From the NCBI GenBank assembly GCA_039621445.1, contig CP154954.1, positions 24,998,954 through 25,062,953 of the forward strand: a stretch of 64,000 nt of DNA, read 5' to 3'. This DNA comes from Euglena gracilis. Taxonomy: Eukaryota. Shown here in pieces: positions 12,542-31,260 of this stretch; within the stretch, counting starts at the first letter, position 1, and each line of letters begins with the position of its first letter. The position numbers and the translations under genes were made by a program. The notes below the pieces were generated by a model. That model had not been told where the DNA came from. It did not search any database and saw nothing but the letters and a program-made list of their open reading frames with translations.

Positions 12542-13133
12542 TGTTGGGGGATGAGGACCCTCGCCCGGGGGGGCTGCCGGGGCCGCAACCACTTTTTTCT
12601 GGCCCTGGAGGGCTCAGGCCAGAGCCTTTCTGAAATTGGGCCCCGTTTTCGAACATGCCAACCGGCGGCAAAGGGGGTGAGGTGTGCCCCCCCGACCCAG
12701 GGTCCCCAGTTGCCCTGCGTAGGATCTTTTTTTCCCTCCACTGTTGGTTTTCCCCCATTTTCCAACTTTTGGACCAAAGGGTGGACAAAAACAAAACCAA
12801 CCCACCTACTTAGGATCAAACAGCAGAGCACAACAAACCTGGGACTTGAGAGGGTGAGTGAGTACCTTGAGTTCAGGTGTTGGGTGGGAAATATATATGG
12901 AAATGAATGCCTTTATTTCCTTGGATAATTGAGTTGTCCTCTTTGATCTTTCAATTCTCAATTGACTTTTCTGCCCTTGTGATTCTCAAATCGAATTCTC
13001 AAATTCTTCCTGGAATTTGCTGGGGTTCCAATTCCACTCGCGTGGCGGTTGACTTGCTTGGGTTATTTCTACTGGGGGGTTGCTGGGAATTTTCTCGGAA
13101 ATTTTTGGCTGCCGACGCCAGCGGCAGCCGACA
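12542..13133 (-). repeat. 3' LTR of non-autonomous element copy 1
   Basis: Direct repeat of 19414-20005, with the PPT adjacent at 13134-13144 (minus strand). Confidence 0.92.
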
Positions 13134-13179
13134 CCCCCTCCCTTGCGACGTCAGTCGGACCCGTTTTTCTGCCCCCCTC

Positions 13180-14782
13180 TGTTTTCTGAGTGTCTCCTTT
13201 CACCCACTGGGGGGTCAAACTTGAAAACTTTTCCTTTCCAGCAGCACTCACTTTCCTTCAGCACAGCATAAACCAAGACTTGAAATCTTCATCTGGCGCT
13301 CAGGCGTTCCAGGAGTCAAGGAGTTCAGGACAGTTGCAGCTGCAAAAAACAGAAATTTTTGTAATTAGGATAGGCGCCTCCTAATTCAATTTTGGGTTTT
13401 AAATTTTAAACCTGGCGCCGCCCACACACCCCTCTCTGGACACTGCGTGCCCACTGCCTTCGGCAATTTTTTTGCGGCGCCAAAATTGGCCTTTTTTGGG
13501 GGGACGGCTGAAATTTGCTTTTTTTAAATTTTTGAACGCTGAGTCAGGGGTATAATACAGCTGACCGGGATTTAGTCCAACAATGCCAAGCACCAATAGG
13601 GGGGCCACAGGGCCACCAGCCCACCCCAGAGAGGGGGCCAGTGGGGGGCTGCCAGGGGGAGTCCCAGGGCCTGTGGGTAGGCCCCCTTGTAGCGGTCCTC
13701 CCATCTGGGCCCTGGGCCTGGGCCACTGGCCAGCACAATCCCAAAGCCAATCTTGCAGGGAGGGGGCTCAAATTGAACACACAATCACTGCAAAGAGGCT
13801 TCACCACTTGAATCACTGAAATTTGGGCTGTCCCCTGTGCCGACCTGGAGCCTGAGGTGCACTTGTGGGGAGGACCCTCCTTTCATCTTTTGCCTCCTCA
13901 TTCTCCTTTTTGCTGAACTTGAAATTGGATTGGGAACTTTTGCCAATTTGAAACATTGACTTATCCTTCCACAGACAAATGCCACTTGTACTGGCCATTT
14001 TGTGGGGGGGACTGTGAACCCTGCCCCAACCAACTCAAACAACGGCGTGGCACAAGGATACTCCAGCATTCTGACAACAATGTCTTGAAGACCTTCCCAC
14101 CAGGGGGCAGTAACCCACTTTGGGACAACCAACACCGCATGACCATGATCCTTCTTCAGCTTGCGGATGACATTTGCAATGAGGCTGAATGGGGGATTTG
14201 CCCACAACAATCCAACAATGGAATGTGTCCACTTCACTGTGAAGGAATCTTCCACAAATTGTGACCCAGGTCCCCACCAGCATTTGAATCTCTTGCCTTC
14301 TTCCAAACTGAATGCATCAATGTTGGGGGTCTTCAATCCCAATCTGTCAATGATTTCAACAACATACTGAAATTTTACTGCATACAGCTCAGATTTCCAG
14401 CCCAGTTTTCTGCAGCATTGATCTTCCCAGATTTCTTCATCATTGACAATCCCTGACTTGACACTTTCTGAAATGTCCATTTATTCTGGCCAAACTGGCT
14501 GACTTTTGTCCTCCAGGCCTTGCGCAACAATTGAAGTCTTTGTGTTTTCTGAGTGTCTCCTTTCACCCTCTGGGGGGTCAAACTTGAAAACTTTTCCTTT
14601 CCAGCAGCACTCACTTTCCTTCAGCACAGCATAAACCAAGACTTGAAATCTTCATCTGGCGCTCAGGCCTTCCAGGAGTCAAAGAGTTCAGGACAGTTGC
14701 AGCTGCAAAAAAACAGAAATTTTTGTAATTAGGATAGGCGCCTCCTAATTCAATTTTGGGTTTTAAATTTTAAACCTGGCGC
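13180..14782. repeat. ~240-bp direct repeats (13180-13418 and 14543-14782) bracketing the methyltransferase ORF
   Basis: Near-identical TGTTTTCTGAGTGTCTCC...TTTAAACCTGGCGC blocks. Confidence 0.9.
13785..14480 (-). CDS. Dam-like DNA N6-adenine methyltransferase, 231 aa, uninterrupted
   Basis: IDAF...DSF...W...LLWANPPFS...AVLVVPKW...WW, the same motif series as the DIRS MT domains in this window. ATG start and a basic C-terminal tail (KRRMRRQKMK). Confidence 0.85.
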   Translation of the reverse strand: MDISESVKSGIVNDEEIWEDQCCRKLGWKSELYAVKFQYVVEIIDRLGLKTPNIDAFSLEEGKRFKCWWGPGSQFVEDSFTVKWTHSIVGLLWANPPFSLIANVIRKLKKDHGHAVLVVPKWVTAPWWEGLQDIVVRMLEYPCATPLFELVGAGFTVPPTKWPVQVAFVCGRISQCFKLAKVPNPISSSAKRRMRRQKMKGGSSPQVHLRLQVGTGDSPNFSDSSGEASLQ

Positions 14783-17700
14783 TGCCCGCACCCCCCCCCC
14801 CGAACAAAAACGAGGAGAGTGAAATTGATTTTTTTTGTGGGGGGCGAAAATTCTGTGTTTTCTTTTTGAAACGGGTCTTGTCGCTTTTTTTTTGTTGAAA
14901 ATCAGTGTTACGAGTCTGACCCCCCAGCCATGATATCGGGCACCTTGGGGGACTCTGAGAAATCAGGTCTACGAGGGAAGCCCCCCCACCCCTTTCCTCC
15001 GACAAGCATGGGGAATGGGTCTTTGAACACAAAATCTGAAAATTCTGAGTGAAACCAACTCTGGGCACTCCACCCCAAGGCCTAAGTCCCACGCTACCCC
15101 CTTGGTGAAAATCCTTTTGGCAGCTTTCATTGTGTGAAACTTCATTTGTCGATTTTTTTATAAAAAATTTAAAAAAATCAGGGACCTTGGCCAACAGTGC
15201 CTCAAAAAATGAATTGTGTGGGAAAAAGAAAAGGAGAACGAGAAACCTAGGCATTCCTTTCCAATTCGGGACAGTTGGGTAAGAAAAAGGCGAACGGTGA
15301 GGTGCAAAGGTAAGACGGTTGGTTATATATGGCGGGAATAGTGTACAGACGGGTGTGCGGGTTCGTGTGCAGTTGTGTGTTTTGTGTGTGTGCACGCTCA
15401 CTTCCTTGTCATGCATTCCAAACCGAAAATGACTGGGTCGATCGATTTTTTTTGAATGCAAAGAAAACAGGGCTTCACATTGGCCCTCAGCCACTTTCTC
15501 ACAGGGCTTCAGTGCCCACGTGGCTCGTTTTTTTTTTTTCATTGGCCCACACCAGGGCCTATGGACGGAGGAGGGGTCATCTCCAGTCCAGGGTCCCCCC
15601 CTCCCCCCGAGTTCGGATGCCTCCAAGCTGTGTTCCATGAAAAAATGCCTTTGACCAATATCCAATAGTCCGGACCGAATGAAAAACTGAGTTTTAAAAC
15701 TCCAACTCGTTTTGTCGTCCACCAGAAAAATTATCAAAATCCAACGTTTTTTCCAACCCTTTGTGTAAAAATCCTCCAGAAACAAAAATCCTCAAAAAAA
15801 TCAAAAAACTGAGTCCAACCCACAAGTCCAGGGCCTACAAAAGCCCTCAACAAGATCCAAAATTCCAACTGCCATGTACAACAAACAAAGTCCAACCGAG
15901 ACCAACCAACCCAACAGAAACAACATCCAGCAGCATACCGTTGCATAGGGGCCAGGCCATTCCAGCCCAACCCTGGGCACAACCAATTCACAGCCGAAAC
16001 CAACCGATTCGGCTTGCCAATTAAAATTCACTGCCCCCCCCCCCCCAATCGCACGAGGCAATGGGGGTCAAATGGTCAAATGACAAGGCAAACTCAAAAA
16101 TACTGAAAATTCAAATCCAATTTTCTCAGCCAAAGCAATTTTTCGCTGCCCCCCCCCCCCCAGTCACATGGGGCCATGGGGGTCAATCTGGCTTCAGCCT
16201 CCAAACAAAAAAATAACAAAACTGGGCCGTAATATCCAGACCGGCTGAAATCACACACATGTCAAAAGACGGGCCTTCACAATGTCCCCCCCACCCCGTC
16301 AACCAATGCGGGGAGGGCCATGGGTTAAAAATTCCTGGCTGCAAAACTGAAATCCCCGTTCGATGAAAAAAATTGAGAAAATGGAAATTTCATCAAACCC
16401 CGTCACAATCTGGGGTGTGACCAAAAACAGTCACGGTCACAAAATGACGCATTCCTGTCCCCACCCAAACGTCTCACAGGGTATCCAATTCTGAGTCAAA
16501 AAATTCCAACCGTAAAACCAAATCTGATTTTGATCCAGCACACCATCAAAAAAACAGAGCTCAACACAGTCCCCCCCCCCCAGCTGCACGAGGAGGGAGA
16601 AAAACTGGCTCCAAACCAAAGCAAAATTCTGAGACCCGAAAACATGAAAAATCTGATTCAGCGCTGTGGGAGCAGCCAACCTGGGCCTGGACCTGGGCAT
16701 TGGCCGTGCATCGGGCCACTGCCCACTGCAGGCTCTGTGAGGTCCTTAAGCTTCTCTCCCCAGCACTTCAGTAAATACCACAAACAATCCACAATTGTGA
16801 TCATCATCGTAATCATGTGATTCAATTGCTTGGGTCTCATTGATGTCATTGAAATCTGTTCTTAATCTCATTGAAATGTTCATCCCAGTCCTTGAAGTTG
16901 ATTCTTGGCAAACTCTTGCACTTTTTGAATTTAATAAATTCACTCAAATTCCTTGGTGACTTGTCTGCTTTAGATCACAATGTAATTCAATGTCAATGTA
17001 ATCATCATTGTCCCAGTCAACAAAATTGGACTTGTTGAACAAAACAACCTTGAAATTCTCAGACTCTTTGGCGTTGATTCTCTTCGGTGCTTCTGTTTGA
17101 TTGATTGCTTGAACCTGCATGACAAAGCACACACACACGCACAAAATTCACCACTGGCAACACAGAAGGGAGATTTCTGAATTTTCTTACTGAACCGAAC
17201 CTGAAAATGCCACTGAACTCTGAACCAAAAAGGCACTTAAAATCTGTATCTTGATCCATCCAATGGGTCACACGAAAACTGTGTATGCAACCCCCAAAAC
17301 TGTAAAAATTGCCCTCAGGAGTTTTGCATTGTGAGGCCTCATGTGATTCTCCCTTAAGCAGACTCCTACAGCTGAAAAAAATGCAACAGAAAGTGTTACC
17401 CACAGATCAACAGATCTTTCACTGAAAAACTGAACTGAATGATGATGATGCCACTGATGGGCCCAAAAATGGACTTACCTCAGGGGTGTCTTTTCCTCCT
17501 GGTTTTATCCACCTTGGTTCCCACTGACTGAAAATTGAAACCTTTCCTGAGCCCTTAGATGGGTGGCCACAGGGGTGTTTATTCCTGGCCTGGGTCCAAC
17601 CCCACCCTTGGAACCCCTCTTTGCGCGCTTTCCAAAAAACTTTTTGGTTCGAGTGGTCCATCGGAGGTCTCCCCCCTCCTCAGGAGTTGGCAAAAACCCA

Positions 17701-19401
17701 GATAAAACCTGCCACAGGACTGCTGGGCTGCCACACTCGAAAACCACAAAAAAACTGGACTGAAAAATCCCAAAAAACTGTGCCGATTCTCCAACATATG
17801 TCCCTGTCCGGGGGTAAGTTTCTCTCTGAAAAAACTGTCCCGTGACAAAAAGGACCAGCAAAAACACAAACAATGATCCCACCTGAAATGCCTGATTTGT
17901 CCCCGTCTGGGATGGTGACACATGTCAATGCCGTGCCCCACCCCAAATGACATTCGGGACAAGAACCGAAAACTGAAAACTCTGAAACTGAAAATGAAGG
18001 ATCATTGATCTGGCTGCCTGAACACTAGGAGAAAATTCCCAAGCATCGTGGCTGGGCGTCTCCATTGATGTGGAAAGCAACCGGGGAAAAAACATGCACC
18101 CCAGAAACCAGATTCAAAATGTTTGACTTGGCTGCTTTTCCATAAGCCAAACTCTGTGAACTGAAAATCCAGATTTAAAATTCTGGTTGATTACGCATCT
18201 GCCTCCAACACCAGATCACCATGAAAAACGTATCGCAAAACAATCACAATGCCACAAGCAAATCACAAAAACATACTGATCTGTAAAGTGCTGTGCGGTG
18301 CCAGTCAGTGGTTAGACCTGTGAAAAGACCTCGAAAAATCACCACCACCACTGATGCGGTGGAAACCACCCCCAGCTGTTCCAGGGATTTGCAAATCAGT
18401 CCCAACCCCACCAATCCTGAAACCAACTTGGTCTCAAAAATTGAAAGTCATTCCAGCTGTTTTTGGCAGGCCTCCAGAATTTTTTTGCCTGTCTGAATTT
18501 CCTTGGCTGTGCGGCAAAATCCGAGGAAGATTTCTCAGAAGACACTGATGACGGCTGCAAATTTGTGACATGTCCAGAATTCAGATTCACAGGCACAAAA
18601 TTTTCTGGACTTAGAAATTTTTCATTGGGCTGTAACTTTTCAATGATTTGCAATTCAAAGATTTTCAGCCGTTCCTCCAGAATCTTTTCTTCACTCTCCA
18701 GCCGTTTTGACAGAGCCTCGCCCTTCTCACACAGGGACTGGATGCTTTCAGAAAAACGATTTTCAATTTCACTGCAAGTTCATGTGTAAAGGTCATGAAA
18801 ACTATCTGCCAAATTTCTCAGACGGGTTACAACTTCAGCCATCCGTCCCTCCAAGTGGCTGGACTCACTTTGGCTGGGCACTTCCTCCAGTTTCGTCAGT
18901 CTCTCGTTCAGGGAAAAAGTGTTTAAAAATAATTCTGTGATACCTGCCTCAACTTTTTGCCACCACTCATCCCAAGGGTCATTAAAAGTTTCAGGTTTTG
19001 TGACCTCTGAAGTTTCCACACTGTCTGATTTAACACTCACCTGTCCTGATTCAGATTCACACGCCACACCTCTGATGTGCAAAACATTTGGACAAGCAAA
19101 TCTCTGTGGTTTAACTTCAGGTTCTCTTGGCAGTGACCTTTTTGGGCTTACCCCTGACGCTTTACAAGATTGACATGGAGAAGCTGAGGCAGGGCCATGA
19201 GAATGTCCAATGGCTGCTTCACATCTGAGTTTCCAAAACTCCCTCTGAGACGCCAGATATTCAGCCTCCCTTTTTCTTTGTTCCTCTGTTTGGGTATCAC
19301 TGAATTCAATTCCCAACAATTTGAAGTGGTCACAGTATTCTTTGATTTCTTTTTCATCAAAGGAATCTAAAAATTCTTCACTGACAGAGTCAGTGAAGCC
19401 A

Positions 19402-19413
19402 CCTCTGCTACCA
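19402..19413 (-). promoter_or_regulatory. tRNA-iMet primer-binding site
   Basis: Minus strand reads TGGTAGCAGAGG directly after the 5' LTR. Confidence 0.85.
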
Positions 19414-20005
19414 TGTTGGGGGATGAGAACCCTCGCCCGGGGGGGCTGCCGGGGCCGCAACCACTTTTTTCTGGCCCTGGAGGGCTCAGGCCAGGGCCTT
19501 TCTGAAATTGGGCCCCGTTTTCGAACATGCCAACCGGCGGCAAAGGGGGTGAGGTGTGCCCCCCCGACCCAGGGTCCCCAGTTGCCCCGCGTAGGATCTT
19601 TTTTTCTCTCCACTGTTGATTTTTGCCCATTTTCCAACTTTTGGACCAAAGGGTGGACAAAAACAAAACCAACCCACCTTCTTAGGATCAAACAGCAGAG
19701 CACAACAAACCTGGGACTTGAGAGGGTGAGTGAGTACCTTGAGTTCAGGTGTTGGGTGGGAAAGAAATATGGAAATGAATGCCTTGATTTTTTTGGATAA
19801 TTGAATTGTCCTCTTTGATCTTTCAATTCTCAATTGACTTTTCTGCCCTTGTGATTCTCAAATCGAATTCTCAAATTCTTCCTGGAATTTGCTGGGGTTC
19901 CAATTCCACTCGCGTGGCGGTTGACTTGCTTGGGTTATTTCTACTGGGGGGTTTCTGGGATTTTTCTGGGAAATTTTTGGCTGCCGACGCCAGCGGCAGC
20001 CGACA
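19414..20005 (-). repeat. 5' LTR of non-autonomous element copy 1
   Basis: Direct repeat of 12542-13133. Confidence 0.92.
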
Positions 20006-21149
20006 AAATCCGCATTCAAAATTTCTCCACTAAAGTTGAAATTCTAATTGACACTGGTTATCGCATTGAATTGCTTTTTCGGTTGGGATTGATACCGACC
20101 CCGCTCTTGGTAAGCGCCAAGAAACCGAGCAAAGTTACAACCGCGGATAACACCCCCATGTGCGGTGGTGTTTTTGGGATGTGTGCTCGAGATACTCTTG
20201 CCCATCATTCCAAAGCATCACTCACCCCCCCCACAATTACAACATTTCACCAATATTTGGGGTTACGAGTCCGGAATTCACAGGTCTGACGTAATTTTGG
20301 GGTACCCATTTTTACGCCAGTACCGATTGGTTGTGGATTGCCACTCCCACGGCTTGCGCACAGCACCCACCACTTCATTGCCACCCAAACCACCATTACC
20401 GCTGGCGTCAGCCATGACGACCACCACTTTTTCAACACCGTTATCCACAACGGCAACACCGTTATCCACCACACCAACAACCGGTTTGCACACCCGGGGT
20501 ACGGAGAAAGCCTCCCCCCTACCCAATGACACACCCACATGCGTTCCACATGAGGTAGGGCAAGCGATTAGCGTTACCCCCGCCGTTCCACTGGGTTACA
20601 AGACGAAAGCCCAAAGGCCTGCAGTGATCACGGTGTCGAGTAGTCGCCCAGCTACACCACCACTCCGTTTCCCACCAGTTGTGCCGAATCCAGGCACACC
20701 TGTACAGGACTCACCGGCTAAGGCCATCGACACCCACTTACACGCACACCCGTCACACCATCACACTTCCTACCAATGTGTGCACTGCAGGAGAATTTAC
20801 ACCCAATCGGATTTCGATTGTGGATGTTTAGTTCAATGTACGACACTAATCGCAATTCCGAATACGGAATACGCACGCCATGATACACTTGGTTGTAGCC
20901 CGCAATGCGCGGAGATACACCGAGTTCTCCAACAACGCGGATTAACCTCGTTGTTTGGAAACGCGAAAAGCGTTTTGCCTAATCACCATCCCGAGTACAC
21001 TTGGCATTAATTTGATGCGGAATGGGGAAACCCCCAGCCTGTCCAAACTCCCTTGGGATTAACCCTTGCGGTAGTAGAAGACAGCCCGCATGTTTGTGGA
21101 TCCATTCATTGTGTTTCGTCACTCCTACCCGGAAATCGGGTGCATGAAA

Positions 21150-21590
21150 ACGCGAAAGGCGTATGGAATGCTTTTAATTTTGGTCAATATCGCATTTTGG
21201 AACGATTGTTTTCCAAAATCGCGAGATTGGCTGATTCTTTTGATTTGGCATTGGAAATCGATGCCTTTTCATCCAATGCACATGCCCGTTTGCCACGTCA
21301 TTAGTCACAACACTCGAACGCATTTGATAAATTTTGGGGATACGGTGTTATGGATGCACCCCCCTCCAAAACTTATCGAATGTGCGGTTGAGAAAATTCT
21401 GCGGGATGAAGCCCGTGGAGTTATTCTCAAACCCATCATTCCGGAAGCGTAATGGTTCACTCGACTATCGTATGTGTGTTTTTACTGGTGGGATTTACCC
21501 ACTAATGTACCGATTTTTGAAGATTTTTGTGGTAAAATATTACCACCCTTGCAAGAAATCATTTTTCGTGTATGTTTCTTCGATGCATTT
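21150..21590 (+). pseudogene. Dam-like methyltransferase domain embedded in gypsy pol, between PR and RT
   Basis: EIDAFSS..ARLPRH*..NAF..W / VLWMHPP..LI..AVEKILRDEARGVIL.P...*WF..L, which runs into the RT frame 21474..22148. Confidence 0.7.
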
Positions 21591-24552
21591 GGAATGTCCG
21601 AATTTGCGGTGCCGAGGAAGCTCGGTAGCCCCAGGGATACCCTGGCGGTTTCCGCAGTCATCGAGAGTGCAGGTCAGCATCCTAAGTCAGCCGAATTCTG
21701 TTCGCGGATCACCCGCGAATTTCACGGTGTGCTGGAAAATCCAGTATACGCGTGCGACATCGACCCCGCGATACGGGGTCCGTTCGGTGTTTGTAAGATC
21801 GAGCTTGAGGAAGAAGCTAAACCAATGCACCGAAAATTTTTTCGATGTTCGGGAGAACGCAAACAAGCTCTCAATGAAATGATTGAGAAGCTTATTCAGC
21901 GCAAGTGGATCGTACCCTCGAAAAGCGAGTGGACATCCCAGGCATTCGTTGTTCCTAAACCTCCAGACCCCTCCGGTCAGAAGAAATGGAGACTGGTACT
22001 GTATCAGCGGTACCTGAACTCCCAAACAAGGGATGATCCCTTCCCGCTCCCCCTGATCGAGGATTTGATCACCAAACAATCGGAAAACCGGTTGTGGTCA
22101 ATTTTTGATCTGGAGGACCGGTTTTCACCAAATGCACTTGCACCCTGACTCACAAACATACACAGCATTCGTGACATCCAAGGGTGTGTACCAATGGACG
22201 GTACTCCCCATGGGTGTTAAGAATGGCCCAGCCATGTTTAAGCGCATGATACAATGGGTTCTACGCGATTTACCGTTTGCCATTGTGTACATTGATGATG
22301 TGCTGGTGGGAACACCACCATCAAAAAAACATGTGCTTTTCGCGAAAGGCGCGAAAATGCATTTGTTTCGGATACTTATAAAATTTTGCCGTCACATCCT
22401 CAGCAATTGACAGCGGAAAGCCGCTCCGAGTAAACTCGAAGCCATCAAGAAATGGACCACTGAGATAATCAAACCGATTACACACCTCAAAGGATTTTTG
22501 GGATTAGTCCAATACTACGCGATATATATGAAGGACTTCGCGAAAATCGCGGTTCCCCTCACCAAACAGCTCAAAGACCGGGCTGTTGACAACACCAAAG
22601 TCATTTGGGATGACCAAATGCACGTGGCCCTTGAGAAAATCAAGGTTTTGCTTTTGGAGAATGTTGTCCTCGAAATCGCGGACCCGTACAAACCATATGT
22701 GCTGGAAGTCGACAGCAGCGATTACGCTGTTGACGGAGTTCTTAGCCAGCATAACGCGGTGAATGAACTCCGACCTGTGGCTTTCTTCAGCAGAAAGCTA
22801 CAGGGCGACGACGGAAAAGGTCCAGTCAAGTGGAGTATACGCGAGAAGGAAACCGACGCAATCGTGCTTATACTCCAGAAATTCCGAAGCTGGGTAGCCA
22901 GTAGCCTCGTCCAGATCCTCGTCAAGACCGAGCATGAGAGTCTACAGCACTTGTACACCGAGGATTTGAACAAGGCCATGTCATCGGTCGGAAGGCGATG
23001 CAGATGGCATGAATTCTTGAGTCAATTCACCCTTGTGGTTATATATACCCCTGGTCATAAACAAAAAGTAGCGGATCCGCTCAGTCGGGCCCCTTGGTAT
23101 TACCATGGGAACCCGGATGAGGGAGACGCGACTTTTCATGGAAGTCAGGAAGCTGACTAGTACGCACGTCGAAACGACGCTGCGGACAATCTTTTGGATT
23201 CTTTTCCTGTTTCACAACGAAGCACGTCCGGACCCCGGCGTATTACACGCACGGAGTCCCCTTCCCCACTGTTCTTTCACGAATGGGATTATAGTCGTTA
23301 TCCGGTGTATGACACCATTGTCACCAGACTTCGTAATGGCGAAGTACTGGACAATTACACTCTTTCACCTTTACGGTTGGTTTTTCGCAATGAATCGGGT
23401 TACAAATATTGTATTACCCAGGACCTGGTTGATGATGTGATTTTTTGTGTTATCACAACCATGGTCACCCTGGGGCCCCCAAACTTCTTTCGTTGGTGGG
23501 CCGCAGGTATTGCACAACCCTGAGCGAGAAAGAGCTTTACTCACGCTGTTTGCGAAAAGCGCAACGGTGTCAAATTTGTCAAGCGGTAAAACCCGCAGAG
23601 GTACCCCCCCCCCTGGTACGATGGACTTCTTCCCCGTACCCCCTGACAATTTTACATCCCTCTGCATGGATTTTCTGGAAATAGAACTGTGCAAAGGAAC
23701 GGACGACAAAATTTACGATTACGTTTTTGTTGTCGTCTGCAGGCTGAGTGGGTACATTGTAGCCATTCCATGCCAGAAGTCAAGGTTGACTGCCCAAAGT
23801 TTGGCAACTATATTTTTGGAGAAATGCATTTGGTTAATAAGTTTACCGAATGAAATCGTGAGTGATCAAGACCACTTGATTTCTTCAAGGTTTTTCACCA
23901 CTTTGTGCGGTTCACTCGGAATCGAGCAGAATTTTCCATTATATACCGACCCAAAGGCAATGGTAGAGCCGAGGCAGCCGTGAAATCCGTTGTGAATATG
24001 CTTCGCCTTTCACTGGCTGACTCGCGCAGCAACTGGATATCAGTTCTACCATGGTCTTTGTTTTATATCAATACCCTACCATGGTTGGTTTTGCCTCACT
24101 CCCCCTATAAATTAGTTTTCGGACGGGACCCTCCGGCCAAAGGGGATGTCCCTTCGGAGAGACCCGCCCGAACGAGTGTCAGTTGCGAGACCTGGTTTGC
24201 AGAAGTAGAAAATCTACGTTCTTCAGTCCAGAAGCGCGTGACTGATATTCATGGAACTAAACGGAAATCGTTTTTGCAGAATTTCAAGTCACCTGTGTAT
24301 AGTCCCGGTGACCGCGTGTGGGTACGGAATAGCCGTACTCACATGCAGTCTTCCAAGCTGGACCCCCTCTGGCTCGGCCCCTGTGAAATCCTAGAAAGAC
24401 TAGGTACCAGCGGGCGTTACAAGGTTGCATTACCGAATGGTGTTGAGGACGTTCATATGGACGATTTCAAACCATACCTGTAGCCACCGGATGGGAAACC
24501 CATCCCGTGTCTGCACTTCAAACCCCGTTGCAGATTACCTGAGACGGACGAC

Positions 24553-24741
24553 TTTGTAGTCGATAAAATTATCGATCACAAAGTCGACAGAGGTATGCAC
24601 CTTTGGAAGGTCCGCTGGAAAGGGTATGGGCCCGAGGATGACACCTGGGAGCCAGCAACCAGTTTTGTTGGGTATGTCCAGCAAGATTGGAAGTTGTTGA
24701 ACAAGAAGCATAACATTGATGTTTCCATGACAAGTTTTTGA
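24553..24741 (+). pseudogene. Chromodomain at the integrase C-terminus
   Basis: FVVDKIIDHKVDRGMHLWKVRWKGYGPEDDTWEP, in frame with the integrase after one premature TAG at 24481. Confidence 0.9.
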
Positions 24742-25152
24742 GAACGCATGGGAAACCCATGTTGTTTTCTTCTCTTTTTATCAGTGATTCTTATCATTCT
24801 TTCTTTCCGCAGACTTTTTAGCAAATAATACTCAAGCGGTTACCCTTACACACCTTACAACCAACAACCCAAACATCCCACCGTACCGACCCGGGGCGGT
24901 ATCATGCTGCCGTGTGGAAGGGCAGCCAGGCGGAGGACCGCCTTACCACCCCACAACTCACCCTCAACCTGACCAATATGCGTACCGATACGGCACGCAA
25001 CCACCTGCACGGACTGCGGCTCAGGGAAACCCTGAAGCCAGCAGCAGTAGCAGGATGACCCAAATGCCCGCGGAAGCGCGGCCATCTCAGCCATCGGGCT
25101 CTCGTCGCCTCCCACAGTATGCGGGTGTGATGATCCACCGCCGGCGGAGACG

Positions 25153-26550
25153 ATGAGCCGGGTTATGCGTATGAGCGCAAACCCGGCACCAGACCACCTC
25201 ACCCAGGCATTGTGGGACGACCACTGCCGTAAAATTTTGACCATCGCGAATACCCCTCCGGCCCTGTGGTGTATGTGCGCCCAGGCGACGATCACCGGTC
25301 TGGTGTATTACACCGACGCGGGCGCGTCGGGATTCGCAGCGGACATTACCATGCGTGACCTGGGCGTGGAAGTCCCACCACAGGTCGCACGGCAGGTACC
25401 ACCAGTTGGCACTTACACTGCACATTTTCGTGCTCACTCCCCCGGATTACCCGAGGAAGAGACCGTGGAAGCACCTGTCCCGAGTGAACATCCACGTGTG
25501 AAAAAAAGTATTTTTCGATCCCATGAGCGCATGCCCCGGCGTTATTATCCTGCGCAGGAGCATGTGTCTCAGTACACCGTCTCTGGGGATTACCCCCAGG
25601 AGGCGCCAATGCCACGGGATCAGTACGTGTATCCACCTCAACCCCACCCAACCATTCCTGACCATATCCCACGACGTCCTGCGGAGGGAAACCCTCCCCC
25701 GACGTCTGACTCTGCCCGAAGCGCTCGTCCGCGCGAAGCTGCGGCAGCGCCTCGTGCGGCGCCAGTCCCTCCGGTACAGGATGAACCCGTTAACCCGTGG
25801 GCTGGGCGGCCGTTCGAGACTTAGGAGGAGCGTCAACAGTATGAATATGCTGTGACAATCCAACGACAAATAGCACGTCGTCCCCCTGTTTTCGCCGGCC
25901 GGGGATACCCTGCCCAGGCGGAAATGACACGAGAAGAGCGCCAGCAGTATGATGCTGCTGTGTCGGCTCTCACAGGAGTCCCAGCTCCATCACGATCAAG
26001 TCAACCAGCGCGACAGCAGGACGTTGCTGTGGCGGAAGCGCCTCCAGCACGGCCCACAAGCTCCGCCGCCGGCAAGCGTGACCGCGGCCCGGAACATCTG
26101 ACGCCGCAGCCACAGCGCCGCTCGCCGAGGTCGGAAAATCCGCCCGCGGCGATGCACGTCGACGCTGAGGAGAAAGCTCCGCCAGCGCCAGACGTGACGG
26201 CAGAACGGGCACGTCGGGAAACCAGACCATCCCCAATCGCACCGGTTTACTCGAATCGTCGTGACGCTGAGCAGGAATTTGCTCGAACGCCAAGCATGGA
26301 ATCCGTGACTTACCCTGTGTTTACACCAGAAGACCCAGAATTCTGGGAATACATTAACCTGGATTACCGGGCGACATTCGAATGGCTGTCTAACACGATG
26401 GGTAAGGGTAAAGGCAAGGGCAAGGGTAAAGGAAAAGGAAAAAGTCAGGAGAAAGGTGGGAAAGCCCCACCTGGCAAAGGCGGAAAAGCCGCCTGGTCAG
26501 CTCCAGGCAAAGGCGGAAAATCTGCCGGACCCCAGCAGGCAAGGGCGTAA
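25153..26550 (+). CDS. Accessory ORF A of the chromovirus (Pro/Ala-rich, GK-repeat C-terminus; one in-frame stop at 25822)
   Basis: ORFs 25153..25824 and 25852..26550 are in the same frame, with an EERQQY motif on both sides of their junction and a GKGKGKGKGKGK tail. Confidence 0.55.
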
Positions 26551-26594
26551 AAGCCGCCGAACCTTCGAAAACGAAGGATTATGACGCTGCCTCA

Positions 26595-27677
26595 GTGTTC
26601 AAGTACCTGGAGGAGATCTGGCCGAAAATCGACGAAGATCTCCAAAAGTTCACAGGGGCAGGCAACGTGATCCACCGACCACCGGATGCGGTGCTCGAAG
26701 TGGTGCAGAATCGTATGAACGATCACTGCAAACGTTATTTCTACAGTGCTGAACTTCATGCGTTTGAGGGATACCCTCATTCGACTGAAGTTGTCCTGGA
26801 CCGGATGCCCGGTTTCTGGGAGCTCTGGTTCTGGTTGGGATACCCCTGCCAGAATTTCGGCATTTTTACCGACCGAAACGGTCTGACGTACATCGATTGT
26901 ATGAGTACTTGTGAAAACGGCGAAACGTTCGTCGCACAGCTGAAGGAAATCTTCACGCACATGTATTCCGTTGGAGCACTGGGAATCCAGTGGAAGTATT
27001 ACCCCCTGCCGGAGAAACTCCAGGCGCAGGCCGCGGTAATGTTCACGTGCAACCTCCAGGTATTCTTGGACACCATGTATGACATGCTGTTCAAGGTACT
27101 CGACGTGGACCTCGCGTACCCCCAGCGGTTCAAACTGGAATGCCAGTTTTGCAAGGAAGTTCACATTGTTGACTTCTGGAGTTTCGGAGAACGCGGAAAA
27201 CCGCATCCGACTGCCGAAAGTCCCGGCAGCCAGCCGACCAGGAGATTCCTCCTGCATCAGTGCCGGAATCCCAATATCGGAACGCAAGACCGGAAGATGC
27301 TGAAACAGCACCGGCAGAAAATATTTCTGCTGCAGCAGTACTGGGACAGGGCGTGGATTACCTACGTCCTGGAGGTCTACATATATTTCCTGGAGTACCT
27401 GACCACCGATGTGGATGTACACAGAATGTGGTTACCTCGGGGATACACCGAGGTGGCGCCCAGACCCAATGACCCTGACCAGCGCAGGATGAACCTGCGA
27501 CCGGACTGGGAAGAGGCCGAAATCGGCCTCCAGGAACACCTGTATACCCAGTTCGGGAATATCCTGATGTGGGAAGATTTCCAGATGCTTTTTCGCGGCA
27601 CACGAGGGAAAAGTACCTCGTTATGCGTTGCCGCTGCCCGCTTTCCTGGAGGAAACAGGAGAATTCGGCGTGACTGA
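26595..27677 (+). CDS. Accessory ORF B of the chromovirus, unknown globular protein
   Basis: 360-aa protein-like ORF, aromatic-rich, containing CQFC..H..HQC. Probably frameshifted near its end. Confidence 0.6.
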   Translation: MFKYLEEIWPKIDEDLQKFTGAGNVIHRPPDAVLEVVQNRMNDHCKRYFYSAELHAFEGYPHSTEVVLDRMPGFWELWFWLGYPCQNFGIFTDRNGLTYIDCMSTCENGETFVAQLKEIFTHMYSVGALGIQWKYYPLPEKLQAQAAVMFTCNLQVFLDTMYDMLFKVLDVDLAYPQRFKLECQFCKEVHIVDFWSFGERGKPHPTAESPGSQPTRRFLLHQCRNPNIGTQDRKMLKQHRQKIFLLQQYWDRAWITYVLEVYIYFLEYLTTDVDVHRMWLPRGYTEVAPRPNDPDQRRMNLRPDWEEAEIGLQEHLYTQFGNILMWEDFQMLFRGTRGKSTSLCVAAARFPGGNRRIRRD

Positions 27678-27927
27678 GAATTGTCGACAGCAGTGGGAAG
27701 ACCTCTGCCGGATCGACGACGACGAGCCACAACCTCCACCCGGAAGCTGGGTGAGAGCGTCGTGGCCGCCCCCATAGCCCAACTCTGACAGAAGTGAAAG
27801 TATAAGCTTTTACCGCCTGACAGATGCACAAGGGTGCTACAGAAGCGGAAAAGACCCGCGTACTGCAGCACAACTACACACAGAGGACTCCCCTCCGGAA
27901 GCGGAGGAGGACGAAGAAGAGGTCCCC

Positions 27928-30341
27928 ATGGCCGAGGATGAACCTCAGCCAGCGGAACCTCCGGCACGGGAAACCCGTAGCCCATCGGTCGTGATGCTGG
28001 ACACTGTGGCGGAAACTGCCCAGCGCCCAGGATCGCCGACAGGCGAAATGACACCCGTCCCACCGTCACAATCGTCACTGGGTACGCCGGGCGGACCGAC
28101 CCCTCCGCAGGAAAACCCGCCGGAGACGGTACCCCACACGCCTGAAGGTATTACGTCTCAAGCTACCTGTTTCCGGGGAAACCCTGTTGGCAGAGGAGCC
28201 AGCGGAGGAGCCCACTTCAGGTGAAGAACCTGAACGGCGCACCTCGCTGGGCGGACGCGTACTCGGTGGCTTGCGGTCCCTGATCGCAGTTGTCACTCCA
28301 CGTGGCAATGCGGCCAGTTCTTCCACGGCTGCGGCGGAAACTGCCCAACTGGCGGAAGACATACCTGACACAACAGCCATGGTGGAGGATGAACCTCCCC
28401 CTGCAGCGGCGCCACCGCCGGTGTCGGAGGCGACACGGACGGAAGGCGAACAGACAGCTATGGCAGTGGAAACGACACCAGCCGTGCCAGTACAGGATGA
28501 ACCTGTATCAGCACCGGTAGCGCCAGCCGAGGTACGGGATGAACCCACACCTCAGCGCATTTCCACCGCCACTGCACCAAAGCATTCAGGCACACGGACA
28601 ACCGCGCCTGAAAAACAGGCCGAGCGGACGTCCATGCCCCCACCACAGGCTCAACCAGCGCGAAGTGCGCCGGCCAAGCCTACACCCTCACCATCCCCCA
28701 CGGCTGCCCCTGGGAAACCCACGGAAGCTGCGAAGGAACGCGTAGGACGACCTTCAGCTCAGGAAACCCCTGCTGAAGGTCAACGACGCTCGGCGTCGGG
28801 GAGAAGACCCCGGTCCCAGGCGTCACCACGCACCTGGGCAAGCAAGCGCTACGCCGAACGGCGGCCCTCGGATGCTCCGGAAACCGGAAGTCCGAAGGCC
28901 CCAGCGAAAGCAAAGCCAGGCGCCGCGCCCCTTGTAAGCCCACACCGAAATCCGGTGATCAGCCACCACCGAAAGGCGGTGGTGGTGCTGGCGGTCAGAG
29001 TGCTGTGTCCTCTTCTCGGGGATCGACCTCGGGACAAGGATTCACGCACGTCACATCATCCGGCTATGGGAAAACCTCACAGCCGAAACCTACGTCAAAG
29101 GGGCAGGGAAAATCCCGCGCCTCGACAGCCGAGACACCTTCGGAAGACGAAGTTATCCTCCACTGGAACGCGGTCAATCAGGATGATCCTGAGATTCATG
29201 ACCTGAAAAACAGGTACATGATGATCGACCACAAACTGAGGACACAGCAATGCCTCAACCGGTGGATTGAGCCACTGTTCTGTCAGGGCCGAAAATGGTC
29301 CTTTGATCAGAACGTGACCTGGAATTATTATAATTCCAGATCCCCTCGTGTTTTGGCCCAATACTTCGGTGAGGAATTCGTTATCGACAAAACAACGGAA
29401 AACCGTTTTGTGTGGCTTTGCACTGTATGCTACAAGATGTATAACAGTGCACCTGACTTGGGATTACCCCTTGTCCATGTGTGCAACCCTGTGGATCGGA
29501 AATCGTTCCACAAGGATGTATACATCCCCAACTGTGCCGCCTTGGTATGCGCCAAGTGCGTGGACAGTTGGACCCACAGCACAATTTTAACTACACCGAG
29601 CGAGACGATACGAATGTACCGATACTCTGCGTCAATTGCCTTCGAGGTACCTTCTGGCAAACTGCGGAAGGCGCAGTTCGCACAATCGTGCCAAGTGTCC
29701 AGAAGCCACTGGAGGAATACTCCACCTTGCACAAAAAGTACAAGGACTTTTTCAAGTACTCCAACCTCAAGCTTGACGACTACCGCCACACGGGAATGGC
29801 CCGTGGGTGGCAGATCGACAGTGGGGCGATACGCCTCGCTGCTGAGGAAGCAGGGGTAAGATTACTTTACCTCTGGGAGACAGCAGACAGGGAAAAGATA
29901 CTTTTTCGCCTGTTCCAGACCCAGGACCGAAACGGTCGCTGGTGTCTGCCACAATGGACATCCGAAAACCACGGGATGACCTGGAAAGACCGGCTTGGGG
30001 CCGTATTACGACCCCATACAGTCCGCGCGGAATGCGCATATCACATGCCAATTGACTTCCACCCGGGGAATGCCCCGCAGGTGTCAGCCAATCACCCACG
30101 GACGAACTACTTCATCTTGCCAGCCACTCTGCCCAGGAAATTCTGGGAGAAGCTGCAGTGGTTCCTCGGGGAAAGAGCGAGTGTAACCAAGCACACAGTG
30201 CCAGAAGGATGGGTTCGGGACTGGGTGGCACCTGACTTCGAATACGAATCGCCAGAAACCTGGCTCGTAGATAGGCCACCACCACCACAATTTCAGATGG
30301 TCCTTGCGGAAGATCCCTTGGACTCCCGCCATGATTATTAG
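27928..30341 (+). pseudogene. Accessory ORF C (disordered N-terminus, Cys-rich zinc-finger-like C-terminal domain), frameshifted
   Basis: Overlapping frames 28187..29206, 29005..29859 and 29481..30341 with CTVC..HVC..C...CAKC..CVNC. The C-terminus is conserved in the second copy at 45510-46441. Confidence 0.6.
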
Positions 30342-31250: not shown

Positions 31251-31260
31251 GGGAGGGGGA
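31251..31260 (+). promoter_or_regulatory. Polypurine tract
   Basis: GGGAGGGGGA directly before the 3' LTR. Confidence 0.85.

What the first reader, a model, noticed from the sequence alone, without database searches (positions are those of the whole stretch)
21150..21590. Dam-like methyltransferase domain inserted between protease and RT in a chromovirus pol
Seen: IDAF...NAF..W...LWMHPP...EKI..D.ARGVIL.P...WF motifs lie directly upstream of the RT frame, with HPP in place of NPP. Known: canonical Ty3/gypsy pol is PR-RT-RH-INT, and the methyltransferase captures I recall for LTR elements are cytosine DNMTs in dinoflagellates and charophytes. Inference: a gypsy lineage combines a DNA-methylation writer with a chromodomain reader in one polyprotein.
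Basis: partly seen in the sequence, partly recalled or inferred. Interest (0 to 1): 0.75.

Follow-up and report, generated by a model that had tools for sequence, protein, structure and literature searches.

The report
Eroded Dam-like domain in dead chromovirus
A broken copy of a very abundant gypsy-type jumping gene really does carry a phage-like adenine-methyltransferase domain between its protease and reverse transcriptase, a design first described in a 2026 preprint, but in this whole branch of elements the catalytic residues have been replaced, so the domain probably no longer methylates.

Summary
Window 21164-21596 (+) encodes all 147 positions of a Dam-like (Pfam PF05869-type) domain. 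It lies between protease and RT of a Ty3/gypsy chromovirus (LTRs 7526-7951 and 31261-31686). The copy is dead: the domain has two stops and a 2-nt deletion, the rest of pol has at least five more indels, and a 7.5-kb LTR element is nested in the protease.

The domain is not an artefact. 27 of 36 related polyproteins carry it, and 24 of 25 domain pieces hit PF05869. A model of the closest relative (pLDDT 93) matches phage DNA N6-adenine methyltransferases (E 2e-8).

HPP is not a private mutation. Other genomic copies and the closest relative share it. In the window's clade 0 of 13 members keep canonical NPP[F/Y/W], against 133 of 148 other Dam-like domains, yet the domain stays conserved (52% identity, no gaps). 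I read it as a retained, probably non-catalytic methyltransferase fold.

The class (DAM-LTR retrotransposons, some with chromodomains) was described in bioRxiv 10.64898/2026.05.21.726589. This scan had already noted it twice in this genome (e1-7360013, e1-7361912) and in other genomes. The "writer plus reader" reading is only partly supported.

The parts
7526..7951 (+). 5' LTR of the chromovirus (TG...CA)
   Evidence: 405 of 426 bases identical to 31261-31686.
7952..12541 (+). Leader and gag region, broken by frameshifts. Holds a zf-CCHC knuckle in ORF 11330-12022. It ends with the N-terminal piece of the protease frame (ORF 12279-12554).
   Evidence: Pfam zf-CCHC E 1.1e-6 and 6e-4 in the read-through. 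The frame continues across the nested insertion.
12542..20005 (.). Nested 7,464-bp LTR element that splits the protease. It is not part of the chromovirus. It has 592-bp LTRs 97% alike, TG...CA ends and a 4-bp target duplication AAAT. No pol domain was found. It itself carries a 1.6-kb insertion at 13180-14796.
   Evidence: Self-BLAST, junction sequences, no Pfam hit in its long ORFs. Homology to relatives' pol starts exactly at 20005-20008.
20006..20330 (+). Aspartic protease core (LIDTGY with Asp codon at 20050-20052, then ILGYPFL), with a frameshift near 20172-20178
   Evidence: ORF translations; collinear blastx to P0003/P0004/P0005 residues about 85-141; indel at 20172 absent from other copies. 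No Pfam protease hit; the motifs are recognised from recall.
20331..21163 (+). Pro/Thr-rich, poorly conserved linker between protease and Dam-like domain
   Evidence: ORF 20114-21010 translation. In six full-length relatives this linker has 17% mean pairwise identity and 27% gaps.
21164..21596 (+). Dam-like (PF05869-type) methyltransferase-fold domain, complete in length but broken. TAG stop at 21302-21304, 2-nt deletion after 21338, TAA stop at 21450-21452.
   Evidence: profile hits and translation; other copies have G at 21450 and an extra GT after 21338; relatives hit PF05869.
21357..21368 (+). Motif IV, HPPP in place of canonical NPP[F/Y/W]
   Evidence: Shared by other genomic copies (loose-end consensus) and by P0001 (HPPL).
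21597..22410 (+). Conserved Dam-RT junction and reverse transcriptase (frameshift near 22118-22145)
   Evidence: Pfam RVT_1 E 8.7e-15 in ORF 22069-22410; blastx collinearity; indel at 22118.
22411..23160 (+). RNase H (Ty3/gypsy type)
   Evidence: Pfam RT_RNaseH_2 E 1.4e-20 and RT_RNaseH E 2.7e-20.
23161..24483 (+). Integrase: zinc-binding region, DDE core (rve, about 23657-23932) and SH3 (about 24307-24462). It has frameshifts near 23441, 23591-23604 and 23931.
   Evidence: Pfam rve E 1.5e-8 and SH3_Tf2-1 E 2e-7; blastx; indels absent from other copies.
24484..24741 (+). C-terminal chromodomain (about 24553-24660); pol ends at 24741
   Evidence: Pfam Chromo E 2.2e-11. P0003 aligns to residue 1746 of 1748 at 24732.
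24742..31260 (+). 6.5-kb 3' region with long + strand ORFs and no recognisable domain. It ends in a polypurine tract (gggaggggga). It may hold nested material. No DNMT was found.
   Evidence: No Pfam hit in ORFs of at least 110 aa, in three-frame read-through or in PHROGs. PPT seen.
31261..31686 (+). 3' LTR of the chromovirus
   Evidence: No target-site duplication was seen around the pair.

Best explanation
The region is the Dam-like domain of a dead copy of a very abundant LTR retrotransposon of the Ty3/gypsy chromovirus type. The element's layout is LTR, gag (zf-CCHC), then pol with protease, a Pro/Thr-rich linker, the Dam-like domain, RT, RNase H, integrase, SH3 and chromodomain, then LTR. 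It belongs to the recently described class of DAM-LTR retrotransposons.

Shown:
- The domain is a compact class-I methyltransferase fold of the phage N6-adenine (PF05869) type.
- It is translated in frame as part of Pol in many intact relatives.
- It is under constraint.
- In this copy it is broken by two stops and one frameshift.
- In the window's clade the residues that define adenine-N6 catalysis are replaced. These are the Asn and the aromatic residue of motif IV, plus a Trp that is otherwise nearly invariant.
- The putative AdoMet-side residues (the Asp-x-Phe of the VDAF strand) and the fold-defining residues are kept.

Inferred, about 50% likely: in this clade the domain no longer methylates adenine. 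It is kept as a non-catalytic module next to RT. It may bind nucleic acid or AdoMet, or act as an adaptor on the reverse-transcription complex, much as catalytically degenerate methyltransferase subunits are kept elsewhere (METTL14 is the analogy I recall).

The chromodomain presumably steers integration as in other chromoviruses; this follows from established knowledge and was not tested here. The confidence of 0.55 is for this whole package. Identity and architecture alone I put at about 0.95.
For: Architecture:
- Pfam finds RVT_1, RT_RNaseH, rve, SH3_Tf2-1 and Chromo downstream.
- Blastx is collinear with 1,600-1,800-aa relatives.
- LTRs are 405 of 426 identical.

Domain present in relatives:
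- 36 related polyproteins were found.
- 27 of 36 carry the domain over at least 90 of 147 profile positions.
- 14 of 16 scanned whole proteins have PF05869 at E <= 0.01, always upstream of RVT_1, and 6 exceed the 28.1-bit cut-off.
- 24 of 25 isolated domains hit PF05869, best E 1.5e-11.
- PHROG 111 'DNA methyltransferase', E 1.4e-6.

Fold:
- AF2 model of P0001's domain: pLDDT 93.4, pTM 0.89.
- BFVD: phage DNA N6-adenine methyltransferases at E 2e-8, TM 0.72-0.77 over 141-146 columns; 16 hits at E <= 0.001.
- PDB: PCIF1 Z 10.6, PH1948 10.4, METTL5 9.3, KsgA 9.1, T4 Dam 8.4.

Erosion:
- Canonical NPP[FYW] occurs in 0 of 13 members of the close clade, 10 of 14 of the more distant chromovirus relatives and 133 of 148 other Dam-like domains. 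The window has HPPP.
- Trp at profile position 95 is kept in 4 of 13 of the close clade, against 99% of 148 others and 14 of 14 far relatives. D35, F37, W60, W66, P69, K80 and P93 are kept in 13 of 13.
- No canonical tetrapeptide occurs elsewhere in 12 of 13 close-clade proteins that carry the domain (13 of 14 counting P0011, which starts in RT). P0002 has an SPPF in the unconserved linker.

Constraint:
- In six full-length relatives the domain has 52% mean pairwise identity with no gaps, against 17% and 27% gaps in the adjoining linker.

Clade:
- Window plus P0001 has SH-aLRT 100. The 14-row eroded clade has SH-aLRT 100 and is nested among canonical-motif relatives.

Copy-specific breaks and shared HPP:
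- T>G at 21450 in almost all depth of other copies, and in 5 of 5 and 4 of 4 RNA reads.
- GT inserted after 21338 in 16 and 20 contigs and in 3 of 3 RNA reads.
- The loose-end consensus reads ATG CAC CCT CCC.
Against: - No biochemical data exist for this clade, and loss of activity is inferred from sequence alone.
- The His could conceivably act as a hydrogen-bond partner in place of Asn.
- 7 of 13 close-clade members still have Asn.
- The preprint reports more 6mA-methylated DAM-LTR insertions than other LTRs in Euglena gracilis. If that holds for this family it would argue for activity, direct or by recruitment.
- The window's own pieces do not reach Pfam significance.
- The relatives are unnamed metagenome predictions. 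Their activity as elements is inferred only from long open frames.
- I could not compute dN/dS because no DNA of relatives could be fetched.
- The tree is a quick search on 142 columns.
- The role of W95 in the base pocket is my inference; I could not inspect coordinates.
Confidence: 0.55

Rival explanations
1. The domain is still an active N6-adenine DNA methyltransferase, a 'writer'. It marks the element's cDNA or new insertions with 6mA, which host AMT1 then maintains, keeping chromatin permissive. This is the preprint's model. On this view HPPx is a tolerated variant of motif IV.
For: - The fold and most conserved residues are kept.
- The domain is constrained.
- 7 of 13 clade members keep Asn.
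- The preprint reports a higher share of 6mA-methylated DAM-LTR insertions in ichthyosporeans and Euglena gracilis.
Against: - 0 of 13 clade members keep the full NPP[FYW].
- The aromatic residue that follows PP in 147 of 148 other domains is aliphatic, small or Pro in 11 of 13; the two that keep it have lost a Pro.
- W95 is also lost.
- Representative eukaryotic DAMs gave no 6mA in dam-deficient E. coli.
- That motif-IV changes abolish activity in studied amino-methyltransferases is from recall, not from a call.
Confidence: 0.25
2. The domain acts on RNA or on the RNA:DNA hybrid of reverse transcription, not on duplex DNA. This would resemble cap-adjacent or rRNA adenosine methyltransferases.
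For: - The best solved-structure matches are RNA adenosine methyltransferases: PCIF1/CAPAM (Foldseek E 2.4e-3, TM 0.66; Z 10.6), METTL5 (Z 9.3) and KsgA/DIMT1/Erm (Z 8-9).
- Two DIRS-like copies in the window hit Pfam PCIF1_WW weakly (E 0.0017 and 0.36).
- Giant-virus PCIF1-like proteins appear in BFVD.
- The domain sits next to RT.
- The preprint itself raises a hybrid substrate.
Against: - Phage DNA adenine methyltransferases match much better than PCIF1 (E 2e-8 against 2.4e-3).
- A fold match does not give a substrate.
- The eroded pocket argues against any adenine-N6 chemistry in this clade.
Confidence: 0.12
3. The arrangement is an artefact. On this view it is a DIRS fragment nested in a gypsy element, or a mis-assembly, not a true gypsy polyprotein domain.
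For: - The window is a nest of transposons with three other Dam-like domains: 3270-3851(-), 13788-14480(-) and 32153-33016(-).
- The preprint warns of nested insertions and chimeras in Euglena.
Against: - The domain is in frame inside uninterrupted 1,600-1,800-aa ORFs that run from protease to chromodomain.
- The chromovirus Dam domains group apart from the window's DIRS-like and stand-alone Dam domains.
- Tens of thousands of contigs of two DNA runs cover the PR-Dam-RT stretch.
- No repeats flank the domain.
Confidence: 0.02

Closest known systems
[quoted passage not shown]
   Same: Ty3/gypsy-type LTR element whose pol carries a DIRS-type, prokaryote-like DAM (PF05869) domain together with a chromodomain. 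The family is abundant and weakly transcribed. The domain has a compact fold with a small beta-sheet.
   Different: - The main text says the Asn-Pro-Pro pocket is well conserved. It holds neither 'inactive' nor 'non-catalytic', and 'degenerated' occurs only for orphan remnants. Here a whole clade lacks the canonical motif.
- The main text does not state a PR-DAM-RT order ('protease' occurs 0 times).
- No DNMT is present here, so this is not one of their 'EpiLTRs'.
- Whether this family is in their data set I cannot tell. The organism is coded and the figures and supplements were not seen.
MT (Dam-like) domain of DIRS tyrosine-recombinase retroelements. The preprint states that DAM-like domains were previously reported only in a subset of DIRS. 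The original descriptions by Goodwin and Poulter are recalled, not read.
   Same: Homologous domain. The A1 profile finds the window's two RT-RNase H-Dam copies at E 9e-11 and 5.7e-7. The VDAF...W...NPP...P.W...W pattern is the same.
   Different: - DIRS order is RT-RNase H-MT with a tyrosine recombinase. Here the order is PR-MT-RT with a DDE integrase and chromodomain.
- The DIRS-like copies in the window keep NPPW.
Phage DNA N6-adenine methyltransferases of Pfam PF05869 / PHROG 111
   Same: Sequence-profile hits and the best structural matches (E 2e-8, TM about 0.75).
   Different: Identity is only 13-22% in the best 13 BFVD matches (E up to 5e-6). The domain is embedded in a eukaryotic retroelement polyprotein, and motif IV is eroded in this clade.
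PCIF1/CAPAM cap-specific adenosine-N6 methyltransferase (PDB 6irw, 6irx)
   Same: Top solved-structure match: Z 10.6, 128 of 147 residues aligned, rmsd 2.8.
   Different: Identity is 9-12%. PCIF1 is a large host enzyme acting on capped RNA. That it has an NPPF motif is recalled. Fold likeness only; membership is not claimed.
Retrotransposons that captured cytosine DNMTs (de Mendoza et al. 2018, Nat Commun, PMC5890265; listing and start of abstract seen)
   Same: A retroelement carrying a DNA-methyltransferase-type domain.
   Different: Those are C5-cytosine enzymes of a different family. No such domain was found in this element.

Membership tests
DAM-LTR retrotransposon (2026 preprint) | A DAM (PF05869-type) domain encoded within the element's pol | tested here: met
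   Relatives: 14 of 16 whole proteins and 24 of 25 domains hit PF05869. The window copy matches the relatives' profile in three collinear pieces, E 1e-13 to 8e-10. Alone it gives no Pfam hit.
DAM-LTR retrotransposon (2026 preprint) | Ty3/gypsy-type LTR element (RT, RNase H, DDE integrase, LTRs), not DIRS | tested here: met
   RVT_1, RT_RNaseH(_2), rve and SH3_Tf2-1. LTR pair with 405 of 426 identical, TG..CA ends and a PPT. No RT tree against Repbase was built.
DAM-LTR retrotransposon (2026 preprint) | Placement in one of the five named DAM-LTR lineages (for example the Euglena group) | not testable with these tools
   Their sequences, figures and supplements are not on hand. The organism is coded. 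Earlier scan notes call the genome Euglena-type. My only own support is a spliced-leader-like 13-mer found twice in the window.
Chromovirus | Chromodomain at the C-terminus of the integrase | tested here: met
   Pfam Chromo E 2.2e-11 in ORF 24484-24741, directly after the SH3 domain. The same is seen in 10 of the 16 relatives scanned.
Catalytically competent N6-adenine (amino) methyltransferase | Class-I AdoMet-dependent methyltransferase fold | tested here: met
   Model of the closest relative's domain, pLDDT 93.4. Matches to phage Dam-type models and to solved methyltransferases at Z 8-10.6.
Catalytically competent N6-adenine (amino) methyltransferase | Motif IV (D/N/S)PP(Y/F/W) | tested here: not met
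   The window has HPPP and other genomic copies read MHPP. 0 of 13 in the clade are canonical, against 133 of 148 in the wider family.
Catalytically competent N6-adenine (amino) methyltransferase | AdoMet-binding residues | tested here: inconclusive
   D35 and F37 of the VDAF strand are kept in 13 of 13. I could not inspect the pocket or dock AdoMet.
Catalytically competent N6-adenine (amino) methyltransferase | Open reading frame in this copy | tested here: not met
   TAG at 21302-21304, a 2-nt deletion after 21338 and TAA at 21450-21452.
Catalytically competent N6-adenine (amino) methyltransferase | Measured methyl transfer | not testable with these tools
   The only published assay of eukaryotic DAMs, in E. 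coli, was negative.
DIRS retroelement | Tyrosine recombinase and RT-RNase H-MT order | tested here: not met
   The order is PR-MT-RT-RH, followed by a DDE integrase (rve).
EpiLTR (DAM + DNMT + chromodomain; 2026 preprint) | A cytosine DNMT domain in the same element | tested here: not met
   Pfam gave no hit at all (E <= 0.001) in the ORFs of at least 110 aa of 24742-31260, and only zf-CCHC and NPV_P10 in those of the gag region. Three-frame read-through of 24742-31260 and 7952-12541 gave the same at E <= 0.01.

The most novel reading that the evidence does not exclude
A whole clade of chromoviruses keeps a captured Dam-type methyltransferase fold under purifying selection after losing exactly the residues that hold and methylate the flipped adenine: the Asn and aromatic residue of motif IV, and a conserved Trp. 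On this reading the domain is a retroelement 'pseudo-methyltransferase'. It would work as a non-catalytic nucleic-acid or AdoMet-binding module on the reverse-transcription complex. Alternatively it could be the scaffold partner of a catalytic Dam-like protein supplied in trans by the many canonical-motif copies in the same genome; three lie in this very window. If so, DAM capture by LTR elements need not be about writing 6mA at all.
Probability: 0.4. Interest if true: 0.6.

Novelty: new member of a known kind. Interest (0 to 1): 0.35.

Why it matters
The element class is new to the literature (one preprint, 2026), and its proposed role, self-deposited 6mA to keep chromatin permissive, is untested biochemically. 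A clade with the fold kept but the catalytic pocket gone is a natural experiment. Within one genome, HPPx or NPP-aliphatic families can be compared with NPPF families for 6mA, expression and copy number. That comparison would show whether the domain's benefit depends on catalysis. Beyond that, this copy is an ordinary dead transposon in a nest of transposons.

Tried and rejected
- Whole genome: not held. I made no genome-wide copy census or consensus.
- Pfam on the window's own pieces: no Dam hit.
- PDB by sequence, with the stand-alone ORF and with profile A1: 0 hits at E <= 10.
- DNA of relatives, for dN/dS and element ends:
  - P0003 and P0001 as single queries found no confirmed locus in metagenome contigs.
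  - So no dN/dS was computed.
- Organism:
  - Cluster look-up gave no names for the relatives. Only the weak hit P0036 is named, a chrysophyte entry.
  - No Rfam family and no tRNA in the window.
  - A 23-nt euglenid spliced-leader motif typed from recall had 0 matches at up to 3 mismatches.
  - A 13-nt part of that motif occurs twice.
- Tyrosine recombinase near the two RT-RNase H-Dam copies: none by Pfam at E <= 1 or by PHROGs at E <= 0.01. 'DIRS-like' therefore rests on domain order only.
- DNMT in the element: none.
- Target-site duplication around the 7526/31686 LTR pair: none seen. The two LTRs might stem from recombined copies.
- Earlier-findings look-up by sequence: nothing.
- Complex prediction for a degenerate/canonical Dam pair: not run, because binding is only a speculative reading.
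- Chance resemblance and nested-DIRS chimera: considered and rejected (see rivals).
- In some searches I represented the window's domain with 11 X at the first break. later showed that these residues are present in a short ORF, so the tree row lacks them. The placement with P0001 (73% over 128 columns) does not depend on them.
Full report
1. WHAT IS IN THE SEQUENCE

Window 21164-21340 translates to WNAFNFGQYRILERLFSKIARLADSFDLALEIDAFSSNAHARLPRH*SQHSNAFDKFWG. Window 21339-21596 translates to DTVLWMHPPPKLIECAVEKILRDEARGVILKPIIPEA*WFTRLSYVCFYWWDLPTNVPIFEDFCGKILPPLQEIIFRVCFFDAFGM.

A profile built only from relatives (A1, 25 sequences) was run against all six-frame ORFs of at least 25 aa in the window. 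It hit three collinear pieces here: profile positions 3-47, 59-97 and 100-146, with E 8.3e-10, 3.9e-10 and 1e-13. The eleven missing positions are the short SQHSNAFDKFWG stretch. So the whole 147-residue domain is present, at 21164-21596, almost exactly the coordinates given. By themselves the window's pieces give no Pfam hit.

2. THE ELEMENT AROUND IT

Downstream, Pfam finds these domains:
- RVT_1 (E 8.7e-15)
- RT_RNaseH_2 and RT_RNaseH (E about 1e-20)
- rve (E 1.5e-8)
- SH3_Tf2-1 (E 2e-7)
- Chromo (E 2.2e-11)

Blastx against full-length relatives is collinear from the protease to the last residues of pol (P0003 residues 85-1746). The frame changes near 20178, 21340-21370, 22120-22145, 23445, 23590-23612 and 23890-23960.

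Homology to relatives starts exactly at 20005-20008. This is because a 7,464-bp LTR element (12542-20005) is nested in the protease. It has 592-bp LTRs 97% alike, TG..CA ends and a 4-bp duplication AAAT.

Upstream of the nested element the frame continues (ORF 12279-12554). A zf-CCHC gag ORF lies at 11330-12022.

A 426-bp LTR pair bounds the whole: 7526-7951 and 31261-31686, 405 of 426 identical, with TG..CA ends and a polypurine tract before the 3' copy. I saw no target duplication.

The 6.5 kb between the chromodomain and the 3' LTR has long ORFs but no recognisable domain and no DNMT.

3. IS THE DOMAIN A FAMILY FEATURE OR AN ACCIDENT OF THIS COPY?

A search with 21306-22148 (TAA read as X), restricted to longer proteins, gave 36 related proteins with E <= 0.001 among 1,019 candidates. 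Many cover 95-97% of the query.

- Of 16 that I scanned whole, 14 have PF05869 (Dam) at E <= 0.01, always 200-300 residues upstream of RVT_1. Six exceed the curated 28.1-bit cut-off (P0015, P0016, P0023, P0025, P0026, P0027). P0003 and P0007 gave no hit.
- 27 of the 36 carry the domain over at least 90 of 147 profile positions. I did not inspect the other nine one by one. P0011 starts in RT and P0031 holds only the last 36 residues.
- Of the 25 isolated domains in A1, 24 hit PF05869 (best E 1.5e-11) and no other family.
- P0001's domain also hits PHROG 111 'DNA methyltransferase' (E 1.4e-6).
- Several carriers are uninterrupted 1,600-1,800-aa proteins that run from protease to chromodomain (P0003, P0004, P0005, P0007, P0008, P0010).

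This rules out a nested-insertion chimera.

4. FOLD

The AlphaFold2 model of P0001's domain was made with A1 as its alignment. P0001 is the closest relative, 73% identical to the window copy. The model has mean pLDDT 93.4 and pTM 0.89.

Against predicted viral structures, the top hits are phage 'DNA N-6-adenine-methyltransferase' proteins. They score E 2e-8 to 5e-6 with TM 0.65-0.77; the top four align over 141-146 columns. Sixteen hits have E <= 0.001, and giant-virus PCIF1-like proteins follow.

Against solved structures, Foldseek's best is human PCIF1/CAPAM (E 2.4e-3, TM 0.66). The all-against-representatives aligner gives these scores:

| Match | Z |
|---|---|
| PCIF1 (128 residues aligned, rmsd 2.8) | 10.6 |
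| PH1948 | 10.4 |
| METTL5 | 9.3 |
| KsgA | 9.1 |
| T4 Dam | 8.4 |
| M.BseCI | 8.2 |
| M.TaqI | 7.9 |
| E. coli Dam | 7.9 |

Z values near 8 are common background by the tool's own note. What carries weight is that the whole list is class-I methyltransferases, mostly adenine-N6 enzymes, together with the BFVD result.

'Dam-like' is therefore right.

5. HPP: PRIVATE MUTATION OR CONSENSUS?

Not private. I laid two DNA runs of the coded organism A on 20006-24741 at 85% likeness or more. This placed 40,910 and 27,119 contigs, so the family is very abundant.

Differences between other copies and the window copy:
- G instead of T at 21450 in almost all depth (388,627 of 389,328 and 247,387 of 247,591), and in 5 of 5 and 4 of 4 RNA reads. 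The TAA stop is therefore copy-specific.
- An extra GT after 21338 in 16 and 20 contigs and in 3 of 3 RNA reads. The frameshift is therefore copy-specific.
- Indels also at 20172, 22118, 23441, 23591, 23604 and 23931, the very places where I had inferred frameshifts.

The consensus of 14 loose contig ends at 21339 reads ...TTA TGG ATG CAC CCT CCC, that is LWMHPP. No difference at 21357-21359 is among the 40 best-supported rows, but 400 rows were not shown.

Motif IV among relatives:

| Sequence(s) | Motif IV |
|---|---|
| P0001 | HPPL |
| P0004, P0007, P0014 | HPPA |
| P0005 | HPPS |
| P0013 | HPMF |
| P0003 | NPSL |
| P0002 | NPHY |
| P0006, P0012 | NPPV |
| P0008, P0009 | NPPI |
| P0010 | NPPL |

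6. THE EROSION IS CLADE-WIDE AND SPECIFIC

Canonical NPP[F/Y/W] counts:
- 0 of 13 proteins of the window's clade
- 10 of 14 of the more distant chromovirus relatives
- 133 of 148 other Dam-like domains found with the stand-alone ORF of this window (1,457 proteins at E <= 0.001, best 150 listed)

In that wider set, Asn is present in 144 of 148 and an aromatic residue after PP in 147 of 148.

Of the positions conserved at 75% or more in the wider set, the clade keeps Y11, D35, F37, W49, A55, W60, L65, W66, P69, K80 and P93 in 13 of 13, and F56, D84, W100 and F121 in 12 of 13. It has lost three:
- N68: 7 Asn, 6 His
- the aromatic at 71: 2 of 13
- W95: 4 of 13, against 99% in the wider set and 14 of 14 in the far relatives

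No canonical tetrapeptide appears elsewhere in these polyproteins, except an SPPF in P0002's unconserved linker.

In a quick maximum-likelihood tree (72 rows, 142 columns, SH-aLRT only), the window copy pairs with P0001 (100). The 14-row eroded clade has support 100 and is nested among canonical-motif chromovirus relatives, so the loss is derived. The stand-alone ORF falls in a separate 41-row clade (97). The two RT-RNase H-Dam copies of the window pair with each other (97).

7. THE DOMAIN IS NEVERTHELESS CONSTRAINED

Mean pairwise identity in six full-length clade members:

| Region | Identity | Gaps |
|---|---|---|
| Dam-like domain | 52% | none |
| Protease region | 50% | |
| PR-Dam linker | 17% | 27% |
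| Integrase zinc region | 62% | none |
| RNase H, integrase core, SH3, chromodomain | 72-88% | none |

(The Pfam RVT_1 span scores 47% with 31% gaps because some relatives carry an insertion there; 50-residue windows within the RT reach 85-90%.)

I could not obtain relatives' DNA for dN/dS.

8. READING

Shown:
- This is a dead copy of an abundant, weakly transcribed chromovirus family. Only 39 and 228 RNA reads were laid from about 5-6% of two runs, on both strands and mostly under 95% alike.
- Its Pol carries a phage-type Dam fold between protease and RT.

Inferred:
- The three residues lost are the ones that, in studied amino-methyltransferases, contact the target adenine. This is established knowledge for motif IV as I recall it, and my own inference for W95.
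- The rest of the fold is kept.
- I therefore think the domain in this clade is most likely no longer an adenine methyltransferase and is retained for a non-catalytic role beside RT (about 50%).

Rivals:
- An active 6mA writer despite HPPx (about 25%). The preprint's finding of more 6mA on DAM-LTRs in Euglena gracilis is the main point in its favour.
- An RNA- or hybrid-directed enzyme (about 12%), suggested by the PCIF1, METTL5 and KsgA matches.
- Artefact (about 2%).

9. WHAT IS KNOWN

A full-text search (DIRS + methyltransferase domain + retrotransposon + adenine) found 6 papers. A second (Euglena + retrotransposon + chromodomain + methyltransferase) found 1. A third (3 of 4 terms) found 42, of which 10 were listed. 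The only one on this subject is bioRxiv 10.64898/2026.05.21.726589.

From that preprint I read the outline, Results and Discussion and ran term searches. Its supplements are closed and its figures are not held. It makes these points:
- It describes DAM-LTRs as new.
- It names five lineages, among them a Euglena DAM-LTR/DIRS group and a chlorophyte DAM-chromovirus-like clade.
- It notes elements with chromodomain plus DAM plus DNMT.
- It states that the Asn-Pro-Pro pocket is well conserved.
- It reports a negative E. coli methylation assay.

Its main text does not mention a clade with an eroded motif. The supplements that I could not see may bear on that.

Earlier notes of this scan say that the genome is Euglena-type. 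They also show that the same PR-Dam-RT arrangement with an altered motif was already found twice in this genome (e1-7360013, e1-7361912) and that similar elements occur in fungi. My own support for a euglenid host is only a spliced-leader-like 13-mer present twice (0.15 expected by chance).

10. VERDICT

This is a new member of a known kind. Its modest extra interest lies in the clade-wide, specific loss of the catalytic pocket with retention of the fold.

Noticed in passing
window 13180-14796 (ORF 13785-14480, - strand): A 1.6-kb insertion inside the nested LTR element. It is bounded by 254-bp direct repeats (13180-13432 and 14543-14796, 97% alike), each starting with TG and then a spliced-leader-like 13-mer TTTCTGAGTGTCT. 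On the opposite strand it carries an intact 231-aa ORF that is only a Dam-like domain with canonical NPPF. The ORF is 98% identical to the metagenome protein P0037 and belongs to a separate 41-row clade of mostly short Dam-only proteins. The homologous element at 34802-40424 shows the empty site.
   Followed up: partly
window 12542-20005 and 34802-40424: Two copies, in opposite orientation and about 82-85% alike, of an LTR element with LTRs of about 600 bp and no recognisable gag or pol domain in its long ORFs. It looks like a non-autonomous, LARD-like element. The first copy is nested in the chromovirus protease with target duplication AAAT.
   Followed up: partly
window 3270-5062 (-) and 32153-34048 (-): Two decayed elements with the DIRS-like order RT-(RNase H)-Dam. 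Both keep motif NPPW (Pfam Dam E 3.5e-4 and 5.9e-4; weak PCIF1_WW hits). No tyrosine recombinase was found nearby by Pfam or PHROGs. The 64-kb window thus holds four Dam-like domains.
   Followed up: partly
window 24742-31260 (+): 6.5 kb between the chromodomain and the 3' LTR with long open frames (for example 26430-27674 at 415 aa, 28052-29203, 28777-29856) and a (GK)n run. There is no Pfam or PHROG match. The last 1.4 kb plus the LTR recur inverted at 46006-44220. This may be an extra ORF of the family or nested material.
   Followed up: partly
window 50783-52001 and 54770-55198: Tandem arrays with a 77-bp period (self-matches offset by multiples of 77), about 84-97% alike between units and between the two arrays.
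   Followed up: no
window 59125-59287 (-): A short fragment of the same chromovirus family, from the stretch between the Dam-like domain and RT. It is 85% identical in DNA and 78% in protein.
   Followed up: no
window 53891-54466 (+) and 56480-57124 (+): Weak, sub-threshold Pfam hits to a PHD finger (E 1.3e-4) and a C1 domain (E 1.4e-5) in ORFs of unknown context.
   Followed up: no
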